From the IMG/VR virus record IMGVR_UViG_3300030419_006839, positions 1 to 64,000 of that record: DNA of 64,000 bases, one strand, 5' to 3'. Positions 13,189 through 34,205 of this stretch are shown here, in pieces. The DNA comes from a virus. Within the stretch, counting starts at the first letter, position 1. Every line of letters begins with the position of its first letter. Both the position numbers and the translations under genes were made by a program. A model generated the notes under the pieces. The model did not search any database, was not told the DNA's origin, and was given only the letters and a program-made list of their open reading frames with translations.

Positions 13189-13839
13189 ATGAAGATAATT
13201 TTTTGTTTACCTGGAACTAGCTTTTCAGAGAAATTCTTAAGTAGTTGGACAGATCTTTTAACATGGATGAATAAAGTTGGTATTGACTATAGGGTTTCAC
13301 ATGGAGTGAGTTCTGTAGTTTATTTTGCAAGAGCAAATTGTGTTGGTGGAATTAGAGGTCGGGGAGAGTTATTTAATGGAGAAGATTACGATTATTGTAT
13401 GTGGATTGATTCAGATCAAGTTTTTACTAATGAAGATTTTAGAAAATTAATCCTTAGTGCCGATCAAAATAGAGATAAATACATAATAGGTGGTACATGT
13501 AAGATTAGTGATAACATTCACTATCCAATAGTTGAAAAAAGGGAGGATGATTATTTTTATAAATATGGTAGATATAGGTTTTTTACTCAAAAAGAACTAG
13601 ATAGTAAAAAGAAACTATTCCGTGTTTTTTTTACTGGATTTGCTTTTATGTTGATTAAAAGGGGAGTTTTTGAAACTATGGAATACCCTTATTTCAGACC
13701 TCATTGGATTGAAATAAATGACATGAAGGAATTTACTGGAGAGGATCAAGGTTTTTGTATGTCTGCAAAAGAATATGGGTTTGACACTTGGGTTAACCCT
13801 GAAGTAGTTATTGGTCATGAGAAAAGTGTGGTTTTGTGA
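13189..13839 (+). CDS. GT-A fold (GT2-like) glycosyltransferase
   Basis: YDYCMWIDSD (DxD), TGFAFMLIKRGVFE, GEDQGFC, WVNPEVVIGHEK. Confidence 0.8.
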   Translation: MKIIFCLPGTSFSEKFLSSWTDLLTWMNKVGIDYRVSHGVSSVVYFARANCVGGIRGRGELFNGEDYDYCMWIDSDQVFTNEDFRKLILSADQNRDKYIIGGTCKISDNIHYPIVEKREDDYFYKYGRYRFFTQKELDSKKKLFRVFFTGFAFMLIKRGVFETMEYPYFRPHWIEINDMKEFTGEDQGFCMSAKEYGFDTWVNPEVVIGHEKSVVL

Positions 13840-19053: not shown

Positions 19054-22000
19054 TGGCACATGTATTAATTCTTGAAGGTGCAGGAACAGACTATTCTGTT
19101 GGTAGGACAGTGTTGTATGCTTTCGATAATAGTACATATGACCTAACCTCAAATACAAGTAGTATTTTAGTTAAGACAAAACCATCTGCAGGAGGAACTA
19201 CAATACTTACTATTTCTGACTTAAACACAAATAATTCTATTTCAAACTTAGTTACAGGAACTAGTGTTAGTGGTGGAGTTATTCCAGACTTACCTTCAGA
19301 TTTTGTAGGTGGTAAGTATAATTTAAAACTTACAGGAACTACTTGGAGTTTTGAAATTAGAACTGCATATGCAGAGTTGATAGAAGAGTTTTCAGATTCT
19401 TTTATAAAAGTAAATACTGCTGGAAGTTCAAGTGGTTCTGGTGGACTTACTGTAGAATCAGGTAGTGATGATGCTAAAATATATTTTACACATTCTGACA
19501 ACAAGTGGAAAAAAGGAGTTGGGAGTGATAATTATGAGATAGTTGGTAAGACTGAAATTCAAACCCTTACAAATAAAACAATATCAACAGCAAATAACAC
19601 TATAACACGTGCATCAACAGGTGACTTGGGTGTTGCATCTTTTAGTAATAGCAATTTTTCTGTTAGTAATGGTGCAGTTAGTATAAAGAATGATGGTATA
19701 GCACTAGGTACACATACAACTGGAAATTATATTAAGAACATAACTGCTAGTACTGGTCTAACTGGAGATACAGATTCCGAAGGTGGTCAAGCAACTTTAG
19801 CTATAGATAACACTGTTGTCACGCTTACTGGAACTCAAATATTAACCAATAAAACATTAAATGATCCAACAGTATCTGGTTTATATTTATCTGATTCTAG
19901 TATTGTTTTTGAGGGTAGTTCAAACGACTATGAAACAACACTATCAGTTGTAGAACCAACATCAGATAAAACTATTTCACTACCTACTCCAAATGCGAAT
20001 GATACAGTTACTCTTCTTGCGGAAACTCAAACACTAACAAATAAAACTTTGACATCCCCTGTCATATCTGGAGGAACTATAGATAATAATGTTATAGGTG
20101 GAACAACTCCAGCAGCAGGTACTTTTACTACTGGTACTTTCACTTCAGGATCTTTTACTACTTCTATTACTGTTGGATCTTCTAGTTTAACTTTAGATTC
20201 AAATTCAATCACAGTTTCAAATGATAATACAGCAAGTAATAGGAATTTACAACTAATACCTGGAGATCAAGTTGATGGAACTTTAAATACTCCATTTTGT
20301 GTTGGTCATGTTGAGATTATTAATAGTGGTTATGGATTAAGGATAGGTGCAGATCAGTATTACAACTCAGGGAGTTATGGGGTTTATGGAACTAGTACCA
20401 TCTCTAACGGTGATAAAAATAAAATTGCGTCAATAGTAACTCCTAGTTACAATCAAAATGGATCTGTTAAAGATAATGCACTACTTTACTCAGTAGCTGA
20501 ATCTAGTGCAACTGAGATATTTTATGGTGGACTTCCTAGTGGAACAACTCATGCATATCCAGCAACAAAACATGCCTTTATGACAGGTACTGCAAGCGAA
20601 TTACAAGATCCTACACCTACACAGCAAATGAGTATAACTCCATCTGGAGTTTCTGTATTTAATAAATTACATGTAGATGTTGGTGAAAGTGAATTGACTT
20701 TTGATAACGATGCCCCTTTCAGTAATGCTAATTTAAGAATATGGAGGAATGACACATCTATAACATCAGGAAATCCTTTAGGGTATCTTTCTTTTGCTGG
20801 TTCTGATGCAAATACATCACCTACTGATCATGCTACTATATATGCAGATGCTGCATCAAGTCATTCAGATGGTGATAATCCAACTAATTTAAAGTTTCAG
20901 ACTACTGATGATGGTTCTCAATTACCTGCAGATAGAATGACTATCCGTTATGATGGAAATGTAGGAATAGGAACTACTGCACCTACAGTTAAATTAGACG
21001 TTAATGGTGTTATTAAGGGAACAGGAATTACTATAGGTAACTCTACAAGTATTAGTTCTGTTGATACTGATTTATCTAGTGTTTCTGGATCTGATGATAC
21101 TTTAGCTTCTGCAAAATCTATTAAGACCTATGTTGACACCCAAATTACAGCACAAGATTTAGACTTTCAAGGTGATTCTGGTGGGGCTTTAAATATAGAC
21201 TTAGATTCTGAAGTCTTAACACTTACAGGTGGTTCAGCAATTACAACTACTGGTTCTGGAAATACGATTACAATTGACTTGAGTGTAGATGATTCAACCG
21301 TTGAGATAGCTTCAGATACCCTTAAGGTTAAGGATTTAGGAATTACTACAGCTAAGATTGCTGATACCAACGTTACTACAGCTAAGATTGCTGATGCCAA
21401 TGTTACTACAGCTAAGATTGCTGATTCAAATGTTACTACAGCTAAGATTGCTGATGCCAGTGTTACTACAGCTAAGATTGCTGATTCAAATGTTACTACA
21501 GCCAAGATTGCTGATTCAAATGTTACTACAGCTAAGATTGATGATGCCAACGTTACTACAGCTAAGATTGCTGATGCCAACGTTACTACAGATAAGATTG
21601 CTGATGCAAATGTTACTACAGCTAAGATTGCTGATTCAAATGTTACTACAGCTAAGATTGCTGATGCCAACGTTACTACAGCTAAGATTGTTGATGCCAA
21701 CGTTACTACGGATAAGATTAACAATAGTGCAGTTACTACAGCTAAGATTGCTGATGCCAACGTTACTACAGATAAGATTGCTGATTCCAATGTTACTAAT
21801 GCTAAACTTTCAAATAGTTCAATAACAGTTACTGCAGGAGGTGGATTATCTACTGGAGGTTCTGTCTCTTTAGGAAGTTCTGTTACATTAGATCATGCAG
21901 ATACATCAAGTCAAGCAAGTGTTGATAATAGCGGTTCTACGGTTATTCAAGATATTACTTTAGATACCTATGGTCATGTAACATCTTTGGGTTCAGTTCA

Positions 22001-24488
22001 AGTAACTTCAACTCTTGCAGGAGCAACAGATACAAATATAAATACCCCTTCTAGTGCTCATATTTTAGTTTATGATGGAAATGATTCTTGGGATAACAAG
22101 GCAATTTCTGGAGATATAACAATCAACTCCAGTGGGGTTGCTAGTATACAGGCAGATAGTGTTACTTTAGGTACAGACACTACTGGAAATTATGTATCAA
22201 CTATTACTGGTGGTAATGGTGTTTCTAGCACTGGTGCAACTACTGGCGAGAATATATCTCATACCTTATCTGTTGATACTAAAACTAATGGTGGTTTGGT
22301 TTTTGAATCAAACAAACTAACCTTAGATTTAGGTGCATCTACAATAACAGGAACTTTAGCGATTTCTGATGGTGGAACTGGAGCAACAGATGCATCAGGT
22401 GCGAGATCAGCTTTGGGTGTTGATGCATCAGGTACAGACAACTCAACAAATGTGACCTTAGTGACTACTAGTCATGATTATCTTTCTATAAGTGGTCAAG
22501 CAATTACATTAGGAACTATAGATATAGGTGATGATACTAACTTAACCGCAGGATCAGGAATTACACTATCAGGAGATACATTATCAGTTAATACTTCTGC
22601 AGTAGATCATGATTCTTTATCTAACTTTGTAGCTAATGAGCATATAGATTGGACTACATCAGGTGCAGGTACGATTCATTCTAATAATCTCCCAACTGTT
22701 AGTAATGTTACGGTTACAGATAATAATGATAATTCTAATTATGATGTAACATTTACTAATGGATCTAATGCACTTTTAGAGGATAATGGGGAGTTTTATT
22801 ATAACCCATCTACAGGAACTTTAAGAGTTCCAAATTTAACTGTTGAAGGAACCACTACTACTGTTGATAGTGTGCAAATGCAAGCACAAAATGCAATAGT
22901 TTTTGAAGGTGAAACGGCAGATGAATATGAAACAACTTTAACTATAACAGACCCAACTGCAGATAGAACAATTACACTACCGAATATAAATGGTACATTA
23001 ATTACTACTGGAAACTTATCAGATATAACAACAGTTGGTACAGTTTCTAGTGGAACATGGCAAGGTACTGCAATTACTGATACTTATATCGCTTCTGAAT
23101 CAACTTGGAATGCAAAATTAGATACTGCTGGTACAGGACTAACTAAATCTGGAACAACAATTAATTTAGATTCATCTCAATCACTTTCTTCCTTAACTGT
23201 TAGTGGATCAACAGCATTGAATGGTGGAATAACTGTTGACACTAATGCTTTTATTGTTGCAGATTCAACTGGAACTGTGACATCAACAGGAAATTTAAAC
23301 TTTTCAGGAACAGGTAATTCTAATATTGTAGGTAAACTTGGAGTTGGTTTAGCATCTTCAGCTATGACAGGTTCCACTTTAGAGATTGGAACTGGTGCTT
23401 TAAGAGTTAAAAATGCCACTGTTGATAGTCAGGGGTTTAACATAAGTCAGGAATCTTCTAATATATCTAGAATTCATAATGCTTTTGATGATGGTGTGAT
23501 TACTTTTGGAAACAAAGCAACACATTGTGAGAGGATGAGATTAGATTCTAGTGGTCAATTAGGAATAGGAACTTCTCCAGCTACAACTTTACATATAAAA
23601 TCTGCTAATCCTGTAATAAAACTAGAAGATTCTGATCCCGATACTGTTTATGGTCAAATTGATGGTGCTGGTGGTACTTTAATCCTAATTGCTGATGGTG
23701 GTGGTGCTGCTGCAAGTTCTGCAATTAAATTTAGAATTGATGGTGGAACCGCATCTAGTGATAAGATGGTAATATTGGATTCTGGCAACGTAGGAGTTGG
23801 AAATAATTCTCCAGCAGAAAAGCTACATGTTGATGGAGCTATTAGATTGGGAACAACATCTAATGAAGTTGCTGGAAACTTGAGGTGGACAGGAAGTCAG
23901 TTTCAAGGTTATTCTGGAAGTGAGTGGTTAAATTTAGGTGCAGGTGGAGGTGCAGGAACTCCAACAATAAATTCTGGTGTTGCAAAATCTTTAGCGTATT
24001 ACGACAGTGCAGGTAATCAATTATCCGATACTGAAACAACTTCAGGAGATGGAGTTTATTGGGATTCTACAAATGATAGATTGGGTATAGGAACATCTAC
24101 ACCATCATCAACTTTGGATGTAAATGGACATCTTTCCGCAACAACTAAATCTTTTGATATAGAACATCCATCTAAAGAAGGAAAAAGATTAATACATGGA
24201 TCTCTTGAAGGCCCAGAACATGGAGTTTATATTAGAGGTAGAACTAATGGAGAAAAGGAAGTGGAATTACCAGAATATTGGATTGACCTTGTGGATTTGG
24301 ATACAATTACGGTACAATTAACCGCTATTGGTAATAAACAAGATATTTGGGTAGCTTCAATTGATAACAGTCGAATTAAAATAGGAAGTGATATGGGGTT
24401 TGTAGATTGTTTTTATTTCATTCAGGCAGAACGTAAGGATGTTGATAAACTTCAGATTGAAGTTGAGGAGGTAAGCAGTAATGGCTAA
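19053..24488 (+). CDS. Long tail fibre (proximal-type), 1811 aa
   Basis: QTLTNKT repeats, VTTAKIAD tandem repeat, GNVGIGTTAP motifs, C-terminal KSFDIEHP...HGSLEGPEHGVYIRG domain. Confidence 0.85.
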   Translation: MAHVLILEGAGTDYSVGRTVLYAFDNSTYDLTSNTSSILVKTKPSAGGTTILTISDLNTNNSISNLVTGTSVSGGVIPDLPSDFVGGKYNLKLTGTTWSFEIRTAYAELIEEFSDSFIKVNTAGSSSGSGGLTVESGSDDAKIYFTHSDNKWKKGVGSDNYEIVGKTEIQTLTNKTISTANNTITRASTGDLGVASFSNSNFSVSNGAVSIKNDGIALGTHTTGNYIKNITASTGLTGDTDSEGGQATLAIDNTVVTLTGTQILTNKTLNDPTVSGLYLSDSSIVFEGSSNDYETTLSVVEPTSDKTISLPTPNANDTVTLLAETQTLTNKTLTSPVISGGTIDNNVIGGTTPAAGTFTTGTFTSGSFTTSITVGSSSLTLDSNSITVSNDNTASNRNLQLIPGDQVDGTLNTPFCVGHVEIINSGYGLRIGADQYYNSGSYGVYGTSTISNGDKNKIASIVTPSYNQNGSVKDNALLYSVAESSATEIFYGGLPSGTTHAYPATKHAFMTGTASELQDPTPTQQMSITPSGVSVFNKLHVDVGESELTFDNDAPFSNANLRIWRNDTSITSGNPLGYLSFAGSDANTSPTDHATIYADAASSHSDGDNPTNLKFQTTDDGSQLPADRMTIRYDGNVGIGTTAPTVKLDVNGVIKGTGITIGNSTSISSVDTDLSSVSGSDDTLASAKSIKTYVDTQITAQDLDFQGDSGGALNIDLDSEVLTLTGGSAITTTGSGNTITIDLSVDDSTVEIASDTLKVKDLGITTAKIADTNVTTAKIADANVTTAKIADSNVTTAKIADASVTTAKIADSNVTTAKIADSNVTTAKIDDANVTTAKIADANVTTDKIADANVTTAKIADSNVTTAKIADANVTTAKIVDANVTTDKINNSAVTTAKIADANVTTDKIADSNVTNAKLSNSSITVTAGGGLSTGGSVSLGSSVTLDHADTSSQASVDNSGSTVIQDITLDTYGHVTSLGSVQVTSTLAGATDTNINTPSSAHILVYDGNDSWDNKAISGDITINSSGVASIQADSVTLGTDTTGNYVSTITGGNGVSSTGATTGENISHTLSVDTKTNGGLVFESNKLTLDLGASTITGTLAISDGGTGATDASGARSALGVDASGTDNSTNVTLVTTSHDYLSISGQAITLGTIDIGDDTNLTAGSGITLSGDTLSVNTSAVDHDSLSNFVANEHIDWTTSGAGTIHSNNLPTVSNVTVTDNNDNSNYDVTFTNGSNALLEDNGEFYYNPSTGTLRVPNLTVEGTTTTVDSVQMQAQNAIVFEGETADEYETTLTITDPTADRTITLPNINGTLITTGNLSDITTVGTVSSGTWQGTAITDTYIASESTWNAKLDTAGTGLTKSGTTINLDSSQSLSSLTVSGSTALNGGITVDTNAFIVADSTGTVTSTGNLNFSGTGNSNIVGKLGVGLASSAMTGSTLEIGTGALRVKNATVDSQGFNISQESSNISRIHNAFDDGVITFGNKATHCERMRLDSSGQLGIGTSPATTLHIKSANPVIKLEDSDPDTVYGQIDGAGGTLILIADGGGAAASSAIKFRIDGGTASSDKMVILDSGNVGVGNNSPAEKLHVDGAIRLGTTSNEVAGNLRWTGSQFQGYSGSEWLNLGAGGGAGTPTINSGVAKSLAYYDSAGNQLSDTETTSGDGVYWDSTNDRLGIGTSTPSSTLDVNGHLSATTKSFDIEHPSKEGKRLIHGSLEGPEHGVYIRGRTNGEKEVELPEYWIDLVDLDTITVQLTAIGNKQDIWVASIDNSRIKIGSDMGFVDCFYFIQAERKDVDKLQIEVEEVSSNG
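21341..21790 (+). repeat. 30-bp (10-aa VTTAKIADAN) tandem repeat, 15 copies
   Basis: GTTACTACAGCTAAGATTGCTGATGCCAA[C/T] units in perfect 30-nt register, in frame within the fibre gene. Confidence 0.95.
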
Positions 24489-27400
24489 AGATGTACTCAT
24501 AACTCCAGCAAGTGGTAAGATAGAGTTAAAAGATGATAATGTTACTAATGTGTATATTTCAGAAGGAAACGTAGGAATAGGAACTGCTGATCCAGATTCA
24601 ATTCTTCATGTTCAAAATGGGTCTGCTGGAACTGTTGATGCATATTCAAATTCTACTTTAGTGCTAGAAGCAAGTACAGATAATAATTTTATCAATATGC
24701 TTTCTCCTGATGCTAAAAATCAAGGAATACTTTTTGGAGATGCAACTCAAAATTGGAATGGTCAGATTCAGTATAATCATAATGGCAATTACATGGCATT
24801 TTATACTAATCAATCTGAGCAAATAAGAATTACTTCTGGTGGTAGTGTAGGAATCGGAACTGCTTCACCAAGTGAACAATTACACCTTCTTGCTCCTACT
24901 GGTGGTTCTAGTTCACTAAGAATAGATTCTTGTGCTGATGGTGCTGAATTGCAATTGAATGATATTGCTGGCACTGTTACTGGAATGTGGACACTAAAGA
25001 ATAGAAATGGTGATGGTAGATTTGGAATTTCAACTGGTAGTGGTGATGGAACTGATGCATTTGTTATAACTACTGATGGCGAAGTGGGAATCGGAACTAC
25101 TTCACCATCTCATGCACTACATGTTCAGGGGTCTGGTGATACTGTTTTTAGATTAGTAAAGGCAGGGAATGGAAATTTATATACTAGACGTGGAAGTGAT
25201 TCTGTCGATTTTATTAGTGCTAGTGGAACTTCAACAAAAAGAGATATAAAATTTATAGGTGCATCTGATATAAGTTCTAGTGAAACTACTCATATGATAA
25301 TTGAAGGTGATAGTGGAAATGTAGGGATCGGAACTGCTTCACCATTAGAAAAATTAACGATTGGTGGTGGAACAGGAGATGGAGACACATATAATTCTGT
25401 TATAAGATTTGATAGAACTTCTTCAACTGGAAATGTATTGGCAAGTAATATAGTTTTTGATGACCAAGATACCAATTGGGGTGATTTGAAGTTTAGGATG
25501 AAAACTACTGCCAGTTCAGGTGAGGATGCTGGATACTGGACTGATGCCTTAACTATCGAAGGTCGATATGGCAACGTAGGGATCGGAACTACTGCACCAC
25601 AATCAATTTTGGATATTAAAGGTGGAGATACTTCAGGTCAAACTTTAGGAACAGAAATAACAATCCATCACAATAATAATAATACTAACGACAATATAGG
25701 AAGAATTACTTTTAGGAACAATAGTGCAGATGACTTAGCTGCAATTCAAGCATATACTGTAGGTGCAAACACTCAAGGTGAGTTAAGTTTCTGGATTGAT
25801 AATGATGAAAAAGTTAGGATTGATAATGATGGCAAAGTAGGGATAGGGGAGACTAGCCCAACAACCCAACTTGATATTCGCACAGCAAATTGTGCAATAT
25901 TCTGGTGTAATAGCACACATGGTTGTTTCATTTCGAGGGATGGTTCTAATTACCCAAGATTTACTCATAATAATGGTTCTGCTCAATTAGGATTATTTAG
26001 AGCAGGAACTTCAAATCAGGGTGGAATGTATGTTGGTGCTGATGACGGTGGGTTTTATGTTTGGAGTGATGCATTTGCTAAAAGATTTTGTGTATGTGCA
26101 ACTTCAAACATCGCAACTACTAATATTTTTTGCGGTACAACTTCTGTGAATACACCTTTACTCAATGCATCTGGTCAAACTCCCATAAAAATAACTGGTG
26201 ATGCTGATGCTGCCTTTATTTGTTTTACAGGTGGTGCTTCTGATGATTGGCTAGTAGGTACAGTAAACAGTCTTGCAGGATTTGGATTTAAGAACACTAC
26301 TGATGATGAATATAGATTTTTTATAGGGGATGATGGTAAGGTTTCCATAGGTTCTACATCTTCAAGTTATCCACTCCAAGTAATAACAAATATTTCTGGT
26401 GGTACAACTCCTCAAATAGTTGCTAGAGACTTAGGCACTTCTGATGCTACAATTGGATTTCAAATTGCTTCTGCTGCTAATTGGTCAATAGGCATAGATA
26501 ATTCTGATTCAGATAAGTTTAAGATTGCAACGGGTCTGGATGTTGGAACTACACCTAGAATGACTATAGATACTTCTGGCAACGTAGGAATAGGAACTAC
26601 TTCACCAGATACAAAACTTAATATTGATGGTGGAACGGGAAGTCAATCTACAGGTTTAAGTTTTGGTGATGGTGATACAGGGTTCTATGAGCATTCAGAT
26701 GATTCTTTGTGGTTCTTTTCTGCTGGTGTTAGTAGATGGAAGTCAGATTCAGTTTATATGATGTCAACAACCACAGGAGATAAAGCATCTATAGTAAATG
26801 AGGTAGCATCTGGAACCAATCCAGTTTTCACTTTTTATGGTGATACAGATACAGGTATTGGTAAATATGCAGCCGATAAGTTATCACTTATAGCAGGGGG
26901 AACAAATACTGTTACGGTAGCAAATGGTTGTGTAGGAATCGGAACTACTTCACCTAGTGATAAGCTTCATGTTAAATCTGCTAGTAATGTTATTGTTGAT
27001 ATAGAGGCAGGTACAGAGTCTACTAACCATTATTCAATGTTAAGGATGACTCCAACTGGAACTCAAAATTCGTATCTAAGGTTTGGTGGTAATTTTTATT
27101 CACAAAATCTTAGTGGTACAGACTTTTTAACTATTTTATCAGGTGGTAACGTAGGGATTGGATGTGCTTCACCAGCATATAAATTAGATGTATGCGGTTC
27201 AAATGATTTAGTAAGATTTAGGTCTACCAGTGATTCTGCTAGTGATAGTGTTCTTAGAATGGAGAATAATTCTGGAACTGCATTATTTAATATGAGAGGT
27301 AGTGGGTTACTATGTCTTTCTGGCAACGTAGGAATTGGAAAGACTCCAAGTTATGCTTTAGACATTGACGGTACTTTTCGTGGCACATCTAAAGATTTAA

Positions 27401-30400
27401 GATTTGGTGTTTGGGATAGTACGAAAATAAAAATTGTTAATTATGAGGCAGCAGATGCTGCAGATTTACGGTTGTCCAATAGGTATGAAAATCCTATTTT
27501 CTTTGAAACTAATGATACAGTTAGGGGTTGTTTTACTTCTACTGGTTTAGTCGTTGCTGGTGTAACTTGCTCTACAACTTCTGTAAATTCACCTATTGTT
27601 TGTGCTACAAGTTGTTTACAGGCATATAAAGTTTGTCCAACTTATATGCTTCATATGGATGATTGTACGAATTTAGGAGCATCAAAAAGATTTTTCTGTA
27701 TGTACTGGAAACCTAGAGTTACGGCTGCTAGTGGAAATCTTTACAATATAGGGTCGCATATAACTGGTGAGTATGGTGTTCAGAGTGGTTGTACTCATTG
27801 TGGTTATGATGTTGGTATGGCAATTCAGAGATTGGGTGGGGATCAACTTGAAGGAACTGTTGTTAATGCTTCAGCTTTGTACACTCAATTTGGTCATTAT
27901 AGTGATGTTACAGGAACTACTTGTTGTTCATATGGCATTTGTATAGAACCATATTATTATGGGGGAACTGTAACTCATGGGTATGCTATATATATTAAAG
28001 CACCAGTTACAGGTGGAACTATAACAAATCAGTATGGTCTTTATGTAGATGGTTCTAGTGCATGTAATTACTTTGCTGGCAACGTAGGAATCGGATGTAC
28101 TTCACCAGCAGTACCACTTCATGTTTCTGGTGTAACTTGTTCTTCTTGGTTTTGTGCTGATACTGGTGTTTGTTTCAAATCTAGTAGTGCTTGTATTTCT
28201 CTCAATCAGCATTACTTTGATACGAGGGGTGCTTCTGGTGCTTGGTGTGGAATTTCTGCTATATTTAGAACAGCAGCTGGTAATGACCCCAATAATAAAT
28301 GGGTTGCAATAGGAGCAACTAACGATCATGGTTGGTTAAGTTTTGCCTCTGGTGCAAATAAACATTTGGTATTGTGTTCAGATGGAAAAATAGGAATCGG
28401 AACTACTTCGCCTGGTGCAGAGTTAGAAGTTAATGGTGAAGTTTTGTTACCTAACAATAAGGGCATTCTATTCAAAGACAGTTCTTCATCAACTCTAGGT
28501 ATTAAGTCAGACACAAGTGATAGATTGACATTTAGATCTGGTGGTAATTGGGATCGAATGGTCATTGATTCTGGTGGAAAAGTAGGAATAGGAACTACTT
28601 CACCACAAAGACAACTTCATGTACATTGTTCTAGTTCTTCTTGGGATCAGTGTGCATCTCTTAGGTTATCATCCGAAAATGTAACCAATTTTTACGGAGA
28701 AGTTCAGTTTCATAGAGGTACTTCCGATACTTCTGATATGGGATTGAATTTATTAGTTAGTAATTCTGGAAGTGAAAATTTAACTCCCAAACTCCATGTA
28801 AATGTTGATGGCAACGTAGGAATCGGAACTACTACGCCAGATGAAGCATTGACTGTTGGTGGATCACATAACAATCCCATTGGAACTTATTTTGGTGGAG
28901 AAAAACAATTCCGAATTTATCAAGATGCAGCTGGTGCAGTTGTCGGTATTGGTGATAATTTGGCATCTGAGACAGATATAATTCGTTTTGATGGTAGGAA
29001 TTCATCTCAACCTTCTTGGTTTAATGGTGGTAATGTAGGAATTGGAGAGACTAATCCAAGCAGGAATCTTGAAGTTGCAATGGGTGGAGTTAATGAACCA
29101 GCAATAAACATAAAAGGGTCTACTCATTCATCTTGGACGGATCGAGCTACTATTGGATTTAATTATAATGGATCTGATACTGGTTTTATTATAGGAAGTG
29201 GTTTGGGTGATGCAACTAAAGACTTTTATATTTGGGATGTTTATGACGGTGCATCTAGATTTTTTATAGATACTGATGGCAACGTAGGAATAGGAACTAC
29301 TTCACCAGCAGTCAAACTTGATATAGATCAAAATGGAAATCCAAGTGGAAGTGTAGATGTTTTAAGAATACAAAATAGTGATGGTGCTGGTTTTGGGGAA
29401 GAACATAGGATTAAATGGAAGATTGACACTAGAGATATAGCATACATAGGTGCATCATATTTGACAGATACCAATGGCGGTGGAATAACTTTTGCAACTC
29501 GTCAAGGTGGAACTGTTACTGAAACGATGAGATTGGATGAGAATGGCAACGTAGGAATCGGAGTTGTTACACCCAATGCTTTATTACAAGTTAATGGCAG
29601 AGTTACTGCTGGTTATGATGTAGATAATCATGGTCGAGTTACTATTGGTTCGGGGTCTGCTGTAGATGAACTTTTGTCTTTATCTGTTCAAGGTGGTAGT
29701 GGAAGTACACAAGGTAAAGGTTGTATAGGTTTCAGGCAATCTCCTACTAAGACACATCCATCTGTTAGTCTTGATTTTGAAGAATATGACACAGGCGACC
29801 ATATGGGTACTTTTGGTATATCTGTAACTCAATCTAATGCAGATGTCGCACCTACTAGAGCTTTGACTGTGAAAGGTACTGGTAGTGTAGGAATCGGAAC
29901 TACTTCACCAGATACATTACTTCATGTTTGTCAGGCAGGTCAGACTACTTTAGTTAGAACAGAAACGGCAGCCAATTCAACTACTGGATTTGACATCAAG
30001 AAAACTGGATCAACTACACAACATTGGAGGATTGCAGACGGACAGACTACTAATGGGAAATTAGAGTTTTACGATGTAACAGATAGTCGTTCTATTATGA
30101 CATTTGATGGTGCTGGCGAAGTAGGAATCGGAACTACTTCACCAGAATCAAAATTACATGTCATAGATTCTAGTACTTCGACACAACTCAGGTTAAATCA
30201 ATCAGGGGATAATGATGCCTTGATTGGTTCTGGTACTGGATATTTCCAAATCAAAACTGGAGATGCTGGTGCAAATAATGCATTAACTATTTTACATAGT
30301 AATCAGAATGTAGGAATAGGAACTACTGATCCAAAAAATGTTTTGCATGTCAAGCAAGCTGCTGACGGAAATTACTATGAGGGTGGAATTCAGGTTGGTG

Positions 30401-31152
30401 GCACTACTGATGCTTTAGGTGGAATATTTGGATATAGTGGTTTAGGATCAGGTCGTGTCAACATTTCCAATCTCAATAATGCTGGTGGTACTGCTTCTAC
30501 AATAAAATTTGGATTTGGTGCTATTACTTCTGGATCTCCAGCCAGTACTATGATGACTGTGAATCAGTTGGGTAATGTAGGGATTGGAACTACTGATCCA
30601 GGCTCTAGGTTGCATGTAAATGGTACTTCTGCCGATAATAATGGCATTAGACTTTCATATAATAGTTGGGCTGCAAATGGATTTAAGATAGAGCAAGATT
30701 CATCTACTGCTCACTTGATGTTTAGATATATGTCTGGTTCTAGTATTGGTTGTACGATGTTGAAGATTACTTATAATGGTGATGCTGTATGTGCCTCTGG
30801 TGATGTTGTTGCATATGCCTTCTCTGATTGTAGAATCAAAAATAATTTAAAACTCATTAGTTGTCCAATTGATAAAATAAAAGTAATTTCTGGTTATGAG
30901 TTTGATTGGAATACCAAAGAACAGAGTGTATACGAAGGAAATGATGTTGGGGTTATCGCACAAGAAGTTGAAAAGGTTTTACCGCAAATTGTATGTACCA
31001 GAGACACTGGATATAAAGCAATTAAGTATGAAAAAATTGTACCATTATTAATCGAAGCAACCAAAGAGCAACAGTGTACTATCGAAAAACAACAAAGACA
31101 AATAGATACCTTGACATGTCAGGTAGAATTGTTACTAAAAAGGTGTGCGTAG
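24481..31152 (+). CDS. Long modular tail fibre (distal-type) with C-terminal peptidase S74 intramolecular chaperone
   Basis: About 22 GNVGIGTTSP-type motifs; SDCRIK...GYEFDW...DVGVIAQEVEKVLP...YEKIVPLLIEA followed by coiled coil. Confidence 0.9.
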   Translation: MAKDVLITPASGKIELKDDNVTNVYISEGNVGIGTADPDSILHVQNGSAGTVDAYSNSTLVLEASTDNNFINMLSPDAKNQGILFGDATQNWNGQIQYNHNGNYMAFYTNQSEQIRITSGGSVGIGTASPSEQLHLLAPTGGSSSLRIDSCADGAELQLNDIAGTVTGMWTLKNRNGDGRFGISTGSGDGTDAFVITTDGEVGIGTTSPSHALHVQGSGDTVFRLVKAGNGNLYTRRGSDSVDFISASGTSTKRDIKFIGASDISSSETTHMIIEGDSGNVGIGTASPLEKLTIGGGTGDGDTYNSVIRFDRTSSTGNVLASNIVFDDQDTNWGDLKFRMKTTASSGEDAGYWTDALTIEGRYGNVGIGTTAPQSILDIKGGDTSGQTLGTEITIHHNNNNTNDNIGRITFRNNSADDLAAIQAYTVGANTQGELSFWIDNDEKVRIDNDGKVGIGETSPTTQLDIRTANCAIFWCNSTHGCFISRDGSNYPRFTHNNGSAQLGLFRAGTSNQGGMYVGADDGGFYVWSDAFAKRFCVCATSNIATTNIFCGTTSVNTPLLNASGQTPIKITGDADAAFICFTGGASDDWLVGTVNSLAGFGFKNTTDDEYRFFIGDDGKVSIGSTSSSYPLQVITNISGGTTPQIVARDLGTSDATIGFQIASAANWSIGIDNSDSDKFKIATGLDVGTTPRMTIDTSGNVGIGTTSPDTKLNIDGGTGSQSTGLSFGDGDTGFYEHSDDSLWFFSAGVSRWKSDSVYMMSTTTGDKASIVNEVASGTNPVFTFYGDTDTGIGKYAADKLSLIAGGTNTVTVANGCVGIGTTSPSDKLHVKSASNVIVDIEAGTESTNHYSMLRMTPTGTQNSYLRFGGNFYSQNLSGTDFLTILSGGNVGIGCASPAYKLDVCGSNDLVRFRSTSDSASDSVLRMENNSGTALFNMRGSGLLCLSGNVGIGKTPSYALDIDGTFRGTSKDLRFGVWDSTKIKIVNYEAADAADLRLSNRYENPIFFETNDTVRGCFTSTGLVVAGVTCSTTSVNSPIVCATSCLQAYKVCPTYMLHMDDCTNLGASKRFFCMYWKPRVTAASGNLYNIGSHITGEYGVQSGCTHCGYDVGMAIQRLGGDQLEGTVVNASALYTQFGHYSDVTGTTCCSYGICIEPYYYGGTVTHGYAIYIKAPVTGGTITNQYGLYVDGSSACNYFAGNVGIGCTSPAVPLHVSGVTCSSWFCADTGVCFKSSSACISLNQHYFDTRGASGAWCGISAIFRTAAGNDPNNKWVAIGATNDHGWLSFASGANKHLVLCSDGKIGIGTTSPGAELEVNGEVLLPNNKGILFKDSSSSTLGIKSDTSDRLTFRSGGNWDRMVIDSGGKVGIGTTSPQRQLHVHCSSSSWDQCASLRLSSENVTNFYGEVQFHRGTSDTSDMGLNLLVSNSGSENLTPKLHVNVDGNVGIGTTTPDEALTVGGSHNNPIGTYFGGEKQFRIYQDAAGAVVGIGDNLASETDIIRFDGRNSSQPSWFNGGNVGIGETNPSRNLEVAMGGVNEPAINIKGSTHSSWTDRATIGFNYNGSDTGFIIGSGLGDATKDFYIWDVYDGASRFFIDTDGNVGIGTTSPAVKLDIDQNGNPSGSVDVLRIQNSDGAGFGEEHRIKWKIDTRDIAYIGASYLTDTNGGGITFATRQGGTVTETMRLDENGNVGIGVVTPNALLQVNGRVTAGYDVDNHGRVTIGSGSAVDELLSLSVQGGSGSTQGKGCIGFRQSPTKTHPSVSLDFEEYDTGDHMGTFGISVTQSNADVAPTRALTVKGTGSVGIGTTSPDTLLHVCQAGQTTLVRTETAANSTTGFDIKKTGSTTQHWRIADGQTTNGKLEFYDVTDSRSIMTFDGAGEVGIGTTSPESKLHVIDSSTSTQLRLNQSGDNDALIGSGTGYFQIKTGDAGANNALTILHSNQNVGIGTTDPKNVLHVKQAADGNYYEGGIQVGGTTDALGGIFGYSGLGSGRVNISNLNNAGGTASTIKFGFGAITSGSPASTMMTVNQLGNVGIGTTDPGSRLHVNGTSADNNGIRLSYNSWAANGFKIEQDSSTAHLMFRYMSGSSIGCTMLKITYNGDAVCASGDVVAYAFSDCRIKNNLKLISCPIDKIKVISGYEFDWNTKEQSVYEGNDVGVIAQEVEKVLPQIVCTRDTGYKAIKYEKIVPLLIEATKEQQCTIEKQQRQIDTLTCQVELLLKRCA
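24565..30600 (+). repeat. Dispersed ~30-bp repeat (GGCAACGTAGGAATCGGAACTACTTCACCA consensus) separating unrelated fibre modules
   Basis: Copies at e.g. 24841, 25078, 25315, 25570, 26578, 26926, 28078, 28576, 28810, 29278, 29545, 29881, 30115, 30571. Confidence 0.85.
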
Positions 31153-32265
31153 ATGAGTTATTTTACAACAAATAATTGCTATGATTGTTGTTTGTTATAT
31201 CCTAAATATAATCACATTTATACGCCATATAACGATACAAACTATCACGAAGCATTAGCATCTTCTGGAGCAATAAGTTTGGGAACTACTGCTGGAACAG
31301 ATAGAAGTATATCTGGTGAGTTTGGTGGTAGTACTCCTCATGCATTATCAGAATACTATGGAGTTGCTAGTGGTATACCATCATCTGGTACAATAGATTT
31401 TTCTGATTTTCATGGAAAATCAGCAGCAAATGAGGAGTTTCGTTGGTTGTATCTTCAAAGTGGAGGTACTACTGACCGTCAAAGTTGTATATGTTGTGCT
31501 ATTCTTTGTACATATAAGTGTTGTATTCATCCATCAAGTAGTTCTTTACATAATTGTCTTGAAAAATTAGATGTATACTTTAGTACAAACCACATAACTA
31601 TTGGTGGTATGCTTGCTCAATGTTATTCTGCTGGATGTGATTATACTGCAATACTTTTTGCTGGAAATGTAGATATGGTAAAAACTGGTTTTAGCGAGTG
31701 TTTATGTTGTGCTGTTAAAACTCATGGTACGGGTTTTGTTACTGGTATGTGGGTAGGTGGACTTCACAATTATGGATTTTGGAGTACAGATTCTTCTAAT
31801 TGTAATGACTGCTATCTTGATGATTTTAGATTAGTTGCTCCTAATGGTAGTAATAGCAATACATGTGCTCCCTATTCAAATATATGGAGTGGTTTTACAG
31901 ATGTTGATTTATCTAGTCATTCCGCTTCTACACACTCAATTTTGTGTAATGTTTGCTGTCTTTCTGGTATTGATGGTAAGACTTCACATAATTGTTGTTT
32001 CTGTTTGAATAGTTGCACTACTGATGGTAGTAGTACAAATTGGGTGTGTACAGGTTCAGTACATAGTGTTTGTGGTGGGAAGATGTTTGTATATGGAGAT
32101 CCTTGTAGTAAGTTTTCTGGTGCTGGTAGGCAAGTATCCCTTAATTTACAACTTGATCATGATGGTTTTGGACTTTGTGGAATTACAGTATGGGATAATT
32201 CTGATTATGGTGGTAGTAGGTTAGTAACGAATTCCCTTATATGGGCATCGAGAGGTGCTTTATGA
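31153..32265 (+). CDS. Cysteine-rich fibre-tip adhesin-like protein
   Basis: ASSGAISL...EFGGSTPHALSEYY...GIPSSGTIDFSDFHGKS domain typical of genes following S74 fibres; 29 Cys in 370 aa by hand count. Confidence 0.65.
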   Translation: MSYFTTNNCYDCCLLYPKYNHIYTPYNDTNYHEALASSGAISLGTTAGTDRSISGEFGGSTPHALSEYYGVASGIPSSGTIDFSDFHGKSAANEEFRWLYLQSGGTTDRQSCICCAILCTYKCCIHPSSSSLHNCLEKLDVYFSTNHITIGGMLAQCYSAGCDYTAILFAGNVDMVKTGFSECLCCAVKTHGTGFVTGMWVGGLHNYGFWSTDSSNCNDCYLDDFRLVAPNGSNSNTCAPYSNIWSGFTDVDLSSHSASTHSILCNVCCLSGIDGKTSHNCCFCLNSCTTDGSSTNWVCTGSVHSVCGGKMFVYGDPCSKFSGAGRQVSLNLQLDHDGFGLCGITVWDNSDYGGSRLVTNSLIWASRGAL

Positions 32266-32510
32266 TTACAATAAATATACCAGAAAAAGTATACGGAATA
32301 GAATTAAGTGAAGTTGAGATTGTAGAATATAGTAAGGATTATTTTTCAAGTTTTCCAAACAACGATTGTTCTCTTGAAATTGTATATGTTTTATCAAAAA
32401 ACGGAACTAGGGTAGGAAATCATGGTGTTCGTTATTTAAATAAAATTGATAAAGATTTTGATGAAGAAGTTCTCAAAGGATTTTTTATAGATGGGTTTAA
32501 TAATATATAA
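32262..32510 (+). CDS. Hypothetical protein (fibre-associated)
   Basis: GAGGTG RBS and ATGA overlap suggest start at 32262 rather than 32241. Confidence 0.55.
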   Translation: MITINIPEKVYGIELSEVEIVEYSKDYFSSFPNNDCSLEIVYVLSKNGTRVGNHGVRYLNKIDKDFDEEVLKGFFIDGFNNI

Positions 32511-32595
32511 TTGGATTAAAATTTAAAAAAGTAGTAAAAAACCTCAGTAAAATTATGTTATAAGGTTAAGTAATATTTTATTGGAGGTATTTAGG

Positions 32596-32925
32596 ATGTC
32601 GAATTTGGATCTAACTCAAGATGAGTTAGTAGAAGCAAAAACGCATATAAATTTAATTCAAAAATCGTATAGAAAATTAGAGTCTGCACAATATGCAGTA
32701 AGAGAATTGGAAGGTGATTTTAGGGATTTAATTACATTACATATTCAACAAAAAGGAGGAGATCCTGAGTTGCAATATAATTTAAACACTGATACGGGAT
32801 CTTTAGAACCTGTACAACAAGATCAGTTGGAAGAAGGTAGTCAAAATGGAAATATGCCTTCAGAGGAATCTCTTGATCCAAGCGGTAACTTTCAGTTTGG
32901 AGAAGATGAAGCTGAAGAAGTATAG
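32596..32925 (+). CDS. Hypothetical protein, coiled coil with acidic tail
   Basis: GGAGG RBS before ATG 32596. Confidence 0.6.
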   Translation: MSNLDLTQDELVEAKTHINLIQKSYRKLESAQYAVRELEGDFRDLITLHIQQKGGDPELQYNLNTDTGSLEPVQQDQLEEGSQNGNMPSEESLDPSGNFQFGEDEAEEV

Positions 32926-33299: not shown

Positions 33300-34205
33300 A
33301 TGGAAAATGATAAAATTATTTTCCACGTAAATGGTGGCATTGGTAAAAATATTGCTGCAACAGCAGTAATTAAGGCTATTAAGAAAAAGTATGACTTACC
33401 GATAACTGTAGTAACTGGTTGGTCAGAGATGTTTAAGATTGACCCAAATGTAGAAAAAGTATATAAGTTTGGGTCAACTCAATATTTTTATGAAGATTAT
33501 ATAAAGCGTGGGAACCCTATAATTTTTGCTCAAGAACCTTATTTATCTACTCAACATATTGTTGAAAGAAAACCTTTAAGGCAGTCTTGGATTGAGATGC
33601 TTGGTATGGAGTTTGATAATGAAATGCCAGAGTTGCACTTTAATTTTAGACATCATCAACTTATTGAGCAAAATTACCAAAGAGATAAACCAACTATTGT
33701 GATTCATTCAAATGGAGGAGCAGTAGATCCAGAAGGAAAGAGGGTGTATTCTTGGGCTAGGGATATGCCCCATAATCTAGTTCAGAGATTAGTTGACAGA
33801 TTAAAAAATAAATATCATATTTTTCAAATTTGTTATAATCAAAAACAATTAGCAAAGGGTGCAGAAGTTGTACAGGGGCTAACAGAAATGGAAGCATTTG
33901 CTTTAGTAAAACAATCTAAAGGTAGAATTTTAATAGATAGTTGTATCCAACATGCTTGTGGTGCAATGAATCTACCTTCTACTGTATTGTGGATTGGCAA
34001 TGATCCAAAGATTTGGTCTTATGAGATGCACGACCACATAACTCCTTGTATTGAGCCTAAATTTAACGCTCCAGCGAATGATTTGTATCAGAGGTATGAT
34101 ATAGCTGGATCAACAGATGAATACCCTTATGATACGGATGAGATTTTCGATATTGAAGCAATTATTTCTTCCGTAGAAAAGCAAATAAATCAGAGTGGCA
34201 CTTAG
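33300..34205 (+). CDS. GT-B fold glycosyltransferase, GT9 (heptosyltransferase)-like
   Basis: GGIGKNIAATAVIKAIK, DPNV, ILIDSCIQHACGAMNLPSTVLW. Confidence 0.78.
   Translation: MENDKIIFHVNGGIGKNIAATAVIKAIKKKYDLPITVVTGWSEMFKIDPNVEKVYKFGSTQYFYEDYIKRGNPIIFAQEPYLSTQHIVERKPLRQSWIEMLGMEFDNEMPELHFNFRHHQLIEQNYQRDKPTIVIHSNGGAVDPEGKRVYSWARDMPHNLVQRLVDRLKNKYHIFQICYNQKQLAKGAEVVQGLTEMEAFALVKQSKGRILIDSCIQHACGAMNLPSTVLWIGNDPKIWSYEMHDHITPCIEPKFNAPANDLYQRYDIAGSTDEYPYDTDEIFDIEAIISSVEKQINQSGT

What the first reader, a model, noticed from the sequence alone, without database searches (positions are those of the whole stretch)
24481..32265. Systematic cysteine substitution in the distal fibre and its tip adhesin, next to two glycosyltransferases
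Seen: about 44 Cys in the 2223-aa fibre and 29 in the 370-aa next protein (hand counts), versus 3 in the adjacent 1811-aa fibre. Cys occur in patches (about 25890-26225, 26900-28660, 30750-31150) and replace residues at positions whose normal identity is visible from internal repeats (GNVGIG to GCVGIG; GIGTTS to GIGCTS/GIGCAS), and at non-catalytic S74 positions (SDCRIK, ISCP, IVCT, QQCT). Established: cytoplasm-assembled phage fibres are usually Cys-poor. Inference: surface Cys are selected as handles for chemistry, e.g. inter-chain disulphides formed after lysis, metal binding, or S-linked modification by the phage GT2/GT9 enzymes (S-glycosylation by GT2 enzymes is known from glycocins). This could be an undescribed virion-modification system.
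Basis: partly seen in the sequence, partly recalled or inferred. Interest (0 to 1): 0.8.

Follow-up and report, generated by a model that had tools for sequence, protein, structure and literature searches.

The report
Cysteine-studded phage fibre with glycosyltransferase partner
An uncultured marine phage has a host-binding tail fibre and tip protein with far more cysteine than related fibres, next to a sugar-transferring enzyme; this pairing recurs in many uncultured phages, so the phage probably modifies its own fibre chemically, though nobody has tested this.

Summary

It is not chance. 120 homologous fibres have a median of 0.10% Cys. Only the closest relatives of this fibre are Cys-rich.

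The pair resembles the phage S16 gp37/gp38 module: a fibre with an S74 chaperone end, then a modular tip adhesin. In 9 independent loci a Cys-rich adhesin always follows a Cys-rich fibre. In about 50 other loci both are Cys-poor.

Shaft Cys sit at variable polar positions that otherwise hold Ser, Thr or Asn. They turn over between relatives and show no pairing statistics. Adhesin Cys are about twice as conserved as other residues, so they look structural.

ORF 33300-34205, silent in Pfam, folds confidently as a GT9 heptosyltransferase-like enzyme. Its homologues lie beside Cys-rich fibres across IMG/VR, sometimes with GT2/methyltransferase or sulfotransferase genes.

S-linked modification itself remains untested, and disulphide hardening is the main rival.

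This scan has already noted the same pairing on at least seven other genomes. I found no paper describing it.

The parts
24481..31152 (+). Distal tail fibre, 2223 aa, 44 Cys. Built of triple beta-helix modules joined by GNVGIGTTSP 'capping loop' motifs, with a C-terminal S74 chaperone
   Evidence: Pfam Peptidase_S74 at aa 2115-2171. PDB sequence hits to Bdellovibrio fibre Bd2133 (8OND, E 1.4e-13) and S16 gp37 (6F45). 20 joints listed.
26929..28654 (+). Main Cys patch of the fibre (aa 817-1391, 26 Cys, 4.5%)
   Evidence: Against relative P0125 only 10 of 26 Cys are kept, and nearly all of those lie in the conserved insert.
27733..28080 (+). Conserved globular insert (aa 1085-1200) whose Cys are kept in the aligned relative P0125 (CxxC, CC-x4-C)
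   Evidence: This segment gives E 4e-68 and 7e-67 against P0124 and P0125. Its Cys columns are conserved in the P0125 alignment.
25891..26224 (+). First Cys patch (aa 471-581, 8 Cys)
30751..31149 (+). S74 intramolecular chaperone region with 8 Cys at positions that are normally polar. By analogy with other S74 fibres this part is cut off after folding
   Evidence: Cys at these columns occur only in Cys-rich relatives P0131 and the L003 fibre. The catalytic S-D-x-R-x-K motif is present.
31153..32265 (+). Tip adhesin, 370 aa, 29 Cys. It has an N-terminal extension with an NNCxDCC motif (aa 1-33), a shared attachment module (aa 34-106) and a Cys-rich C-terminal domain (aa 107-370)
   Evidence: The attachment module is shared with 761 proteins, some of whose C-termini are GP38, Gly_rich_2 or LamG domains. 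Cys in the C-domain are 46-58% conserved against 23-27% for other residues at the deepest comparisons.
32241..32510 (+). 89-aa ORF overlapping the adhesin's 3' end; function unknown
   Evidence: Homologues follow the adhesin in L028 (92% identity) and L029 (41%).
32581..32925 (+). 114-aa acidic, Cys-free ORF that travels with the Cys-rich cassette; candidate fibre or adhesin assembly factor
   Evidence: Found at 60-69% identity in L002, L003, L028, L029, L030, L031, L035 and L036, and in no Cys-poor locus. No Pfam or PHROG hit.
33300..34205 (+). GT9-fold (heptosyltransferase-like) GT-B enzyme, 301 aa
   Evidence: AF2 mean pLDDT 93.7 on 120 sequences. Top Foldseek hits are 3TOV (GT9), WaaF 1PSW, WaaC and TibC 4RB4/4RAP, E 1e-12 to 1e-9. 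Pfam is silent.
13189..13839 (+). Weak GT2-like gene directly after another fibre gene (10007-13183)
   Evidence: Pfam Glycos_transf_2 E 2.8e-5, 24.6 bits against a cut-off of 23.3. phrog_1574, function unknown.
19053..24488 (+). Proximal fibre, 1811 aa, 3 Cys. It serves as a Cys-poor comparator on the same virion

Best explanation
This is a gp37/gp38-type host-recognition cassette: a distal S74 fibre, a tip adhesin and small accessory ORFs. Cysteine has been selected into the fibre's exposed, variable repeat positions and into the core of the adhesin's receptor-binding domain. The cassette is genetically coupled to a GT9-fold glycosyltransferase in the same late operon. My reading is that the enzyme decorates the fibre in the cytoplasm, as the bacterial enzymes TibC and AAH heptosylate beta-helical adhesins. 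On this reading the shaft thiols are the acceptor sites, or some of them. Capping by a thioether-linked sugar would also explain why exposed Cys are tolerated in oxic seawater. The adhesin's conserved Cys are structural (disulphide or metal), which is a separate matter. Shown here: the enrichment, its specificity to this module, the Ser/Thr/Asn-to-Cys pattern, the lack of pairing, the enzyme's fold and the co-occurrence. Inferred: that the enzyme acts on the fibre (about 0.45) and that the link is to sulphur (about 0.25).
For: (1) Large ORFs of at least 800 aa in loci that carry a GT9-like gene have median 2.06% Cys, and 29% of them have at least 3%. In control loci all such ORFs are below 0.5% (p 1e-6), and the fibre family median is 0.10%. 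(2) The Cys-rich ORFs next to the GT9-like gene are fibres (S74, collagen, Mtd_N) and lie on the same strand. (3) All four Cys-rich adhesin loci with enough flank carry a close GT9-like homologue: the window, L033, L036 and L003/L115 at 53-71% identity. These four form one clade with 100% support. No Cys-poor locus carries one. (4) Cys occupy only variable sites that otherwise hold S, T or N. (5) In 277 17-mer repeats the Cys sites are statistically independent. Adjacent sites are avoided (odds ratio 0.11), and so is stacking on the next turn (odds ratio 0.40). Partner Cys of a disulphide would be expected to co-occur instead. (6) Shaft Cys positions turn over between relatives while their density is kept. 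(7) Cys-rich and Cys-poor fibres coexist in one genome, so the habitat or host cytoplasm cannot be the cause. (8) More modification genes sit in the same clusters: a sulfotransferase in L115 and a GT2/methyltransferase-like 433-aa gene. (9) The top fold hits include the protein heptosyltransferase TibC.
Against: No GT9 enzyme is known to make S-links. TibC and AAH act on Ser, and these fibres hold plenty of Ser and Thr. About half of the GT9-like loci with full flanks show no ORF with at least 3% Cys, and the homologue in marine virus AG-345-L05 sits beside proteins with ordinary Cys content. The co-occurrence counts are not corrected for shared ancestry. The adhesin's Cys are conserved like structural residues and include CC doublets. 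Cys are also enriched in the S74 chaperone, which is presumably cut off. In L003's 14-mers the Cys stack turn on turn. The family has an invariant G-G-x-G-K motif (aa 12-16) near the N-terminus. I recall that GT9 enzymes carry their catalytic Asp in this part of the protein, but I made no residue-level alignment, so the chemistry may differ.
Confidence: 0.42

Rival explanations
1. Oxidative hardening. The Cys form intra- or inter-chain disulphides once the virion reaches oxic seawater, or transiently during trimer folding. This would stiffen and protease-proof the very long distal fibre and knot the adhesin domain. On this view the GT9-like gene is a neighbour with another target, such as O-linked sugars or host lipopolysaccharide.
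For: The adhesin's Cys are twice as conserved as other residues, and CC is slightly enriched while CxxC is not; both fit disulphide-rich domains. There is a precedent: in cyanophage Pam3 the fibres are disulphide-bonded to the baseplate and fall off in DTT (PMC9942802). One Bdellovibrio fibre tip has a disulphide (PMC10769870). In L003's 14-mers Cys stack on consecutive turns (odds ratio 15).
Against: The 17-mer shafts show no positive pairing at any site pair. Shaft Cys are not positionally conserved. Cys counts are often odd. Assembly takes place in a reducing cytoplasm, and no Erv1, thioredoxin or DsbA was found in the 73%-complete record. This view does not explain the association with the GT9-like gene.
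Confidence: 0.3
2. Metal or iron-sulphur binding. The thiols coordinate Zn, Fe or Fe-S clusters, for example on the trimer axis, much as T4-type fibres hold metal ions on His. The phage's own Fe-S carrier genes would load them.
For: The same genome encodes a 2x[4Fe-4S] ferredoxin, a CGWS glutaredoxin, an IscA-type carrier and NfuA in a row. The fibre's conserved insert has CxxC and CC-x4-C motifs.
Against: CxxC spacing is not enriched in the adhesins (20 observed, 18 expected) and is depleted in the L003 fibre (1 observed, 11 expected). Shaft Cys are at outward, variable sites. Fe-S genes could not be tied to Cys-rich relatives, because the one record searched was a 29% fragment. From my own knowledge, Fe-S carrier genes are common auxiliary genes in marine phages.
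Confidence: 0.07
3. No specific chemistry. The cassette simply lost the usual selection against Cys, or carries the composition of a donor lineage, and Cys drifts in at tolerant Ser/Thr positions. The GT9-like gene is linked only because both lie in the mobile host-recognition region.
For: The 4.5% Cys of the fibre patch is close to what its codon-position base frequencies predict (about 4.0%). Shaft Cys turn over quickly. The cassette is mobile: it occurs on T4-like backbones as well as on this different backbone.
Against: The adhesins (6-8% Cys) and the L003 fibre (6.2%) exceed the roughly 3% I estimate for no selection, from base composition rather than from a tool call (Cys percentages). 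Cys-richness persists across unrelated adhesin domains and three fibre repeat types. Cys avoid adjacent and stacked sites, which is a sign of selection. Other virion proteins of the same phages stay at 0-0.8%.
Confidence: 0.1

Closest known systems
Phage S16 / T2-type long tail fibre tip: gp37 with a C-terminal intramolecular chaperone plus the gp38 adhesin (PDB 6F45)
   Same: The fibre ends in an S74-type chaperone that matches S16 gp37. The next gene encodes a modular tip protein, and relatives sharing its N-terminal module carry GP38-type glycine-rich domains. The same gene order occurs in cultured Synechococcus phage S-CREM2, whose gp85 is annotated as a long tail fibre virion protein.
   Different: The S-CREM2 fibre has 0.08% Cys and its tip protein 1.2%. 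Here the values are 2% (4.5% in the patch) and 7.8%. The Cys-rich C-domain matches nothing in Pfam, the PDB or the Atlas.
Bacterial autotransporter heptosyltransferases TibC and AAH with their adhesins TibA and AIDA-I (GT9; PDB 4RB4, 4RAP)
   Same: A GT9-fold enzyme is encoded beside a long beta-helical repeat adhesin. TibC is among the top fold matches. From my own knowledge, these enzymes add heptose to Ser in the adhesin's repeats in the cytoplasm.
   Different: The phage enzyme has 301 aa, against about 385-390 aa for the TibC chains in the PDB. It is not detected by the Pfam GT9 model. It has an invariant G-G-x-G-K N-terminal motif. The LPS enzymes WaaF and WaaC match it as well as or better than TibC does. 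The acceptor is unknown, and the partner fibres are Cys-rich, which from my own knowledge TibA and AIDA-I are not.
Bdellovibrio mosaic adhesive trimer (MAT) fibres and S74 phage fibres (8OND, 8OML; T5 pb1, K1F endosialidase)
   Same: The fibre has the same triple beta-helix modules. The V-G-G/N-x-x-x-P-x-x-x-L motif forms surface capping loops in these proteins (PMC10769870).
   Different: Among the MAT structures I found only one disulphide reported, in the Bd1334 tip. Here Cys replaces the Asn or Thr of the capping loop and many nearby polar residues.
Glycocin S-glycosyltransferases (SunS, ThuS; GT2)
   Same: From my own knowledge, these are the only well-established bacterial enzymes that put a sugar on a Cys sulphur.
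   Different: They belong to a different GT family and fold (GT-A) and act on small secreted peptides. The window's GT2-like gene is weak and distant.
Cyanophage Pam3 fibre-baseplate disulphides
   Same: Cys on a phage fibre is used for covalent chemistry outside the cell (PMC9942802).
   Different: Pam3 uses one Cys per fibre chain and a few on the wedge, not dozens to hundreds along the fibre.

Membership tests
S74-chaperone tail fibres (Peptidase_S74, PF13884) | C-terminal intramolecular chaperone domain with the Ser-Lys dyad motif S-D-x-R-x-K | tested here: met
   Pfam E 4.8e-9 at aa 2115-2171. SDCRIK is present. phmmer hit to S16 gp37, 6F45.
S74-chaperone tail fibres (Peptidase_S74, PF13884) | Autocleavage and release of the chaperone | not testable with these tools
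   Needs protein expression.
gp38-type tip adhesin | Encoded directly after the distal fibre gene, with an N-terminal attachment module and a variable receptor-binding C-domain | tested here: met
   The stop of the fibre gene abuts the start of the adhesin gene. The attachment module is shared by 761 proteins, some of whose C-termini are GP38, Gly_rich_2 or LamG domains. S-CREM2 gp85/gp86 have the same order.
gp38-type tip adhesin | GP38 (PF05268) glycine-rich receptor-binding fold in this protein itself | tested here: not met
   No Pfam hit and no PDB hit. The AF2 model failed, with pLDDT 35.
Glycosyltransferase family 9 (heptosyltransferases) | GT-B two-Rossmann fold closest to GT9 structures | tested here: met
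   Model pLDDT 93.7. The top 11 Foldseek hits are all GT9 enzymes, E 1e-12 to 5e-9, TM-score 0.54-0.69 normalised to the query.
Glycosyltransferase family 9 (heptosyltransferases) | Match to the family's sequence model (PF01075) | tested here: not met
   No hit at E<=5 on the protein nor on the genome.
Glycosyltransferase family 9 (heptosyltransferases) | Catalytic Asp near the N-terminus and a D-S/T-G-x-x-H-x-A donor-binding motif | tested here: inconclusive
   I-D-S-C-x-Q-H-A is nearly invariant (D213, S214, Q217, H218), and the N-terminal motif is an invariant G-G-x-G-K. I made no residue-level structural alignment. The GT9 motifs themselves are recalled from my own knowledge.
Bacterial autotransporter heptosyltransferases (BAHT: TibC, AAH) | Acts on a protein acceptor; dodecamer with an iron-finger | not testable with these tools
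   Only fold similarity and gene neighbourhood are available. The protein is about 85-90 aa shorter than the TibC chains in the PDB.
Diversity-generating retroelement target | A template repeat elsewhere that matches the variable region | tested here: not met
   blastn of 24481-32265 against the whole record finds only the short internal fibre joints.

The most novel reading that the evidence does not exclude
The GT9-fold enzyme puts a sugar, which in some relatives would then be methylated or sulphated, directly on the cysteine sulphur of the fibre. This would give virions a glycosidase-resistant, oxidation-proof S-linked glycan coat on their host-recognition fibres. Neither the chemistry nor this kind of virion modification has been shown for any virus.
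Probability: 0.25. Interest if true: 0.9.

Novelty: new variant of a known kind. Interest (0 to 1): 0.7.

Why it matters
Tail fibres decide which hosts a phage infects, and they normally avoid cysteine almost completely. Here a group of uncultured aquatic phages, seen in many of the contigs sampled, does the opposite, and only in particular fibres. These phages also keep a dedicated glycosyltransferase-like gene next to those fibres. If the enzyme decorates the fibre, this is a new layer of virion chemistry that could affect host range, particle stability and decay in the sea. If the link is to sulphur, it would be the first S-glycosylated virus particle and a new activity for the GT9 fold. 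It can be tested directly by co-expressing two genes in E. coli and weighing the product.

Tried and rejected
- **DGR hypermutation:** rejected. There is no template repeat.
- **DNA-level TGT bias:** rejected. TGY is enriched only in frame.
- **Codon reassignment:** rejected. The phage's ferredoxin, IscA-type carrier and NfuA translate under the standard code with their expected Cys motifs.
- **Habitat or host-cytoplasm explanation:** rejected. Cys-rich and Cys-poor fibres coexist in one genome.
- **AF2 of the adhesin:** it failed on a 9-sequence alignment (pLDDT 35), so I ran no fold search and measured no Cys-Cys distances. Model coordinates are in any case not readable here.
- **ESM Atlas and PDB profile searches of the adhesin:** no hits.
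- **Thiol oxidase search:** no Erv1 (though the control for that search also found nothing), no thioredoxin and no DsbA. A glutaredoxin turned out to belong to an Fe-S gene module.
- **Fe-S co-occurrence:** inconclusive. L003's record is a 29% fragment and the metagenome records could not be searched.
- **Host inference:** the NfuA search gave only distant matches in MAGs, and no relative of the adhesin was found in 185,579 genomes.
- **Close relatives of the adhesin in IMG/VR:** none were found with the single-protein query.
- **Sequencing runs:** apart from the probable source run, shares were 0.27 or lower and I did not lay any reads, so I draw no habitat claim beyond 'marine metagenome'.
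- **Tree of the GT9-like proteins:** the rich/poor labels scatter across the tree, because 'poor' often just means a truncated flank. The tree gives no count of independent origins.
- a mistyped reference.

Full report
**Setting.** The window is the first 64 kb of a 104,851-bp linear IMG/VR virus record that is estimated to be 73% complete. It encodes:
- an HK97-type capsid protein, two Phage_tube_2 proteins and a 1995-aa tape measure protein;
- a DnaE-type polymerase, a DnaB helicase, a primase and a class II ribonucleotide reductase.

The finding covers two adjacent genes on the + strand: 24481-31152 (2223 aa) and 31153-32265 (370 aa).

**Observation.**
- The three patches fall at the stated coordinates.
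- The motif substitutions exist. There is one GCVGIG and there are two GIG-C-[AT]-S-P among 20 joints.
- The four S74 sites exist.
- Across the whole record the ORFs hold 1.11% Cys. The capsid, portal-region, tube, tape measure and proximal fibre proteins hold 0-0.85%.
- At 1.98% the fibre is modest in absolute terms. It is still 20 times the median of 120 homologous fibres (0.10%, 95th percentile 0.40%), and it reaches 4.5% over aa 817-1391.
- TGY is enriched only in the reading frame, so the signal is at the protein level.

**What the two genes are.**
- The fibre ends in a Peptidase_S74 chaperone that aligns with the C-terminus of phage S16 gp37 (6F45).
- Its repeats align with the Bdellovibrio fibre Bd2133 (8OND, E 1.4e-13).
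- The paper on those fibres describes intertwined triple beta-helices in which the V-G-G/N-x-x-x-P-x-x-x-L motif forms surface capping loops (PMC10769870).
- The next protein has an N-terminal module (aa 34-106) shared with 761 proteins. Some of their C-termini are GP38, Gly_rich_2 or LamG domains.
- In cultured Synechococcus phage S-CREM2 the same module opens the gene that directly follows the annotated long tail fibre virion protein.
- 'Distal fibre plus tip adhesin' is therefore supported.
- The adhesin's Cys-rich C-domain matches nothing in Pfam, the PDB or the Atlas. Its AF2 model failed (pLDDT 35).

**The trait belongs to a mobile cassette.**
- I fetched loci with the adhesin's N-module from IMG/VR and from metagenomes. 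Every locus whose adhesin has at least 3.5% Cys, and whose upstream gene is visible, has a Cys-rich fibre. These are L028, L002, L036, L033, L029, L035, L003 and L034, at 2.5-6.2% Cys. The window is the ninth such locus, with 1.98% overall and 4.5% in its main patch.
- In about 50 loci with Cys-poor adhesins the upstream gene has at most 0.9% Cys, with one 152-aa exception.
- The Cys-rich adhesins carry several unrelated C-domains and an extra N-terminal extension with an N-C-x-D-C motif.
- A Cys-free 114-aa ORF (32581-32925) accompanies all Cys-rich loci that reach far enough, and no Cys-poor locus.
- L002, L003, L029 and L036 lie on T4-like backbones with neck and gp15 genes. The window's phage shows no such markers. 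The cassette therefore moves between phage types.
- In all of them the other structural proteins stay Cys-poor.

**Two kinds of cysteine.**

*Adhesin C-domain.* Cys are about twice as conserved as other residues: 77% against 48% at intermediate distance, and 46-58% against 23-27% at the deepest comparisons. This is how structural Cys behave.

*Fibre shaft.* The picture is the opposite.
- Against P0125 only 10 of 26 Cys are kept, and nearly all of those lie in one conserved insert (aa 1085-1200). The rest swap with G, A, S, T, V or D.
- In the S74 tail, Cys replace T/A/S, E/I, N, S, A/K/Q or K. They are shared only with two Cys-rich relatives.
- In L003's YadA-like heptads, Cys sit next to the conserved Ser, where S, T or N are otherwise found.
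- In the 17-residue repeats of other Cys-rich fibres, Cys occur only at variable sites shared with Ser, Asn or Tyr.

*Spacing and pairing.*
- Classical metal spacing (CxxC) is not enriched, and it is depleted in L003.
- In 277 17-mer repeats the Cys sites are statistically independent. Adjacent positions are avoided (odds ratio 0.11), and so is stacking at the same site on the next turn (odds ratio 0.40). Partner Cys of a disulphide would be expected to co-occur instead.
- L003's 14-mers do stack Cys turn on turn (odds ratio 15). This could reflect recent tandem duplication.

**The glycosyltransferases.**
- Pfam finds only a weak GT2 at 13189-13839, just after a different fibre gene and 11 kb upstream. 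It finds no GT9.
- ORF 33300-34205, 1 kb downstream of the adhesin, has no Pfam hit even at E<=5. It has at least 833 homologues.
- With 120 of these as an alignment, AF2 gives mean pLDDT 93.7.
- The best Foldseek matches are all GT9 enzymes: 3TOV, WaaF, WaaC and the protein heptosyltransferase TibC (E 1e-12 to 5e-9).
- Its closest relatives lie in the other Cys-rich cassettes. L115 (71% identity) is the same contig as L003, and there the gene is followed by a sulfotransferase (Sulfotransfer_3, E 9e-18). After that comes a fibre which, joined across L115 and L003, runs to about 5,815 aa at 5-6% Cys.
- In L036 (59%) the gene lies directly upstream of the fibre. In L033 (53%) it lies downstream of the adhesin.
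- These four form one clade with 100% support.

**Co-occurrence across phages.**
- I scanned IMG/VR with the enzyme alignment. Of 77 loci with a large ORF, 28 have an ORF of at least 400 aa with at least 3% Cys on the same strand.
- Among unique loci with at least 8 kb of upstream sequence the proportion is 13 of 26.
- The ORFs I sampled are fibres (S74, collagen, Mtd_N). A 433-aa GT2/methyltransferase-like gene often lies in between.
- ORFs of at least 800 aa in these loci have median 2.06% Cys. In control loci the median is 0.19% and none exceeds 0.5%.
- Fibres with the same 17-mer repeats hold 0.96-6% Cys in GT9-like loci, against 0.08% in S-CREM2. S-CREM2 shows no GT9-like gene in the annotated stretch, and neither GT9-like query matched its record.
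- Caveats apply. The control loci were chosen as Cys-poor, the counts are not corrected for ancestry, and the enzyme also occurs beside proteins with ordinary Cys content.

**Reading.**
- The shaft Cys behave like exposed, spaced, interchangeable sites rather than disulphide partners.
- I therefore favour a fibre that the neighbouring enzyme decorates. The Cys would be acceptors or be capped in the process. My probabilities are about 0.45 that the enzyme acts on the fibre and about 0.25 that the link is to sulphur.
- Disulphide hardening (0.30) remains the main rival. It is the more likely role for the adhesin's conserved Cys.
- Metal binding (0.07) and neutral drift (0.10) are less likely.
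- None of these chemistries can be shown with sequence tools.

**Literature and earlier notes.**
- Four full-text searches found no paper on Cys-rich phage fibres paired with a heptosyltransferase-like gene (one search retrieved the Bdellovibrio paper).
- The nearest precedents are the Pam3 fibre-baseplate disulphides and shared fibre-chaperone modules in Alteromonas phages.
- The scan's own notes record the same pairing on at least seven other genomes, with the same closest-known family. Those are unchecked AI notes. I reached the pairing independently before reading them.

Noticed in passing
G000 64.7-66.6 kb, just beyond the window; L027:1088-2991 (+): A row of iron-sulphur genes in the phage: a 2x[4Fe-4S] ferredoxin (136 aa), a glutaredoxin with a CGWS site (132 aa), an IscA/HesB-type carrier (109 aa) and an NfuA-type carrier (190 aa; NifU E 3e-21). 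A 307-aa membrane protein precedes them.
   Followed up: partly
L115:11703-20900 joined with L003:2-9769 (one IMG/VR contig): One fibre gene of about 5,815 aa with 5-6% Cys. It is preceded by a GT9-like gene, a sulfotransferase and another ORF of at least 3198 aa with 3.3% Cys and YadA-head repeats.
   Followed up: partly
window 32581-32925 (+): An acidic, Cys-free 114-aa ORF present at 60-69% identity in every Cys-rich cassette that reaches that far, and absent from all Cys-poor loci. No family hit. It may be a dedicated assembly factor.
   Followed up: partly
L118:8651-9949 and equivalent positions in other GT9-like loci: A 433-aa gene with weak GT2 and methyltransferase matches often lies between the Cys-rich fibre and the GT9-like gene.
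   Followed up: no
window 44809-54765 (+): A 3318-aa ORF directly after the tape measure region, with 0.54% Cys. I did not characterise it.
   Followed up: no
window 32241-32265: The 89-aa ORF 32241-32510 starts 25 nt inside the adhesin gene in another frame. It is conserved in L028 and L029, so the overlap is probably real.
   Followed up: no
sequencing runs X18-X20: Three runs from 2025 labelled with a single organism, not a metagenome, hold 23% of the sampled words of 26000-32265. They might point to a host or a culture. I did not lay the reads.
   Followed up: no
L026:17103-18191 (-), G000 101103-102191: A LAGLIDADG homing-endonuclease-like ORF lies in the replication and recombination region, near a Cas4-like PD-(D/E)XK nuclease.
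   Followed up: no
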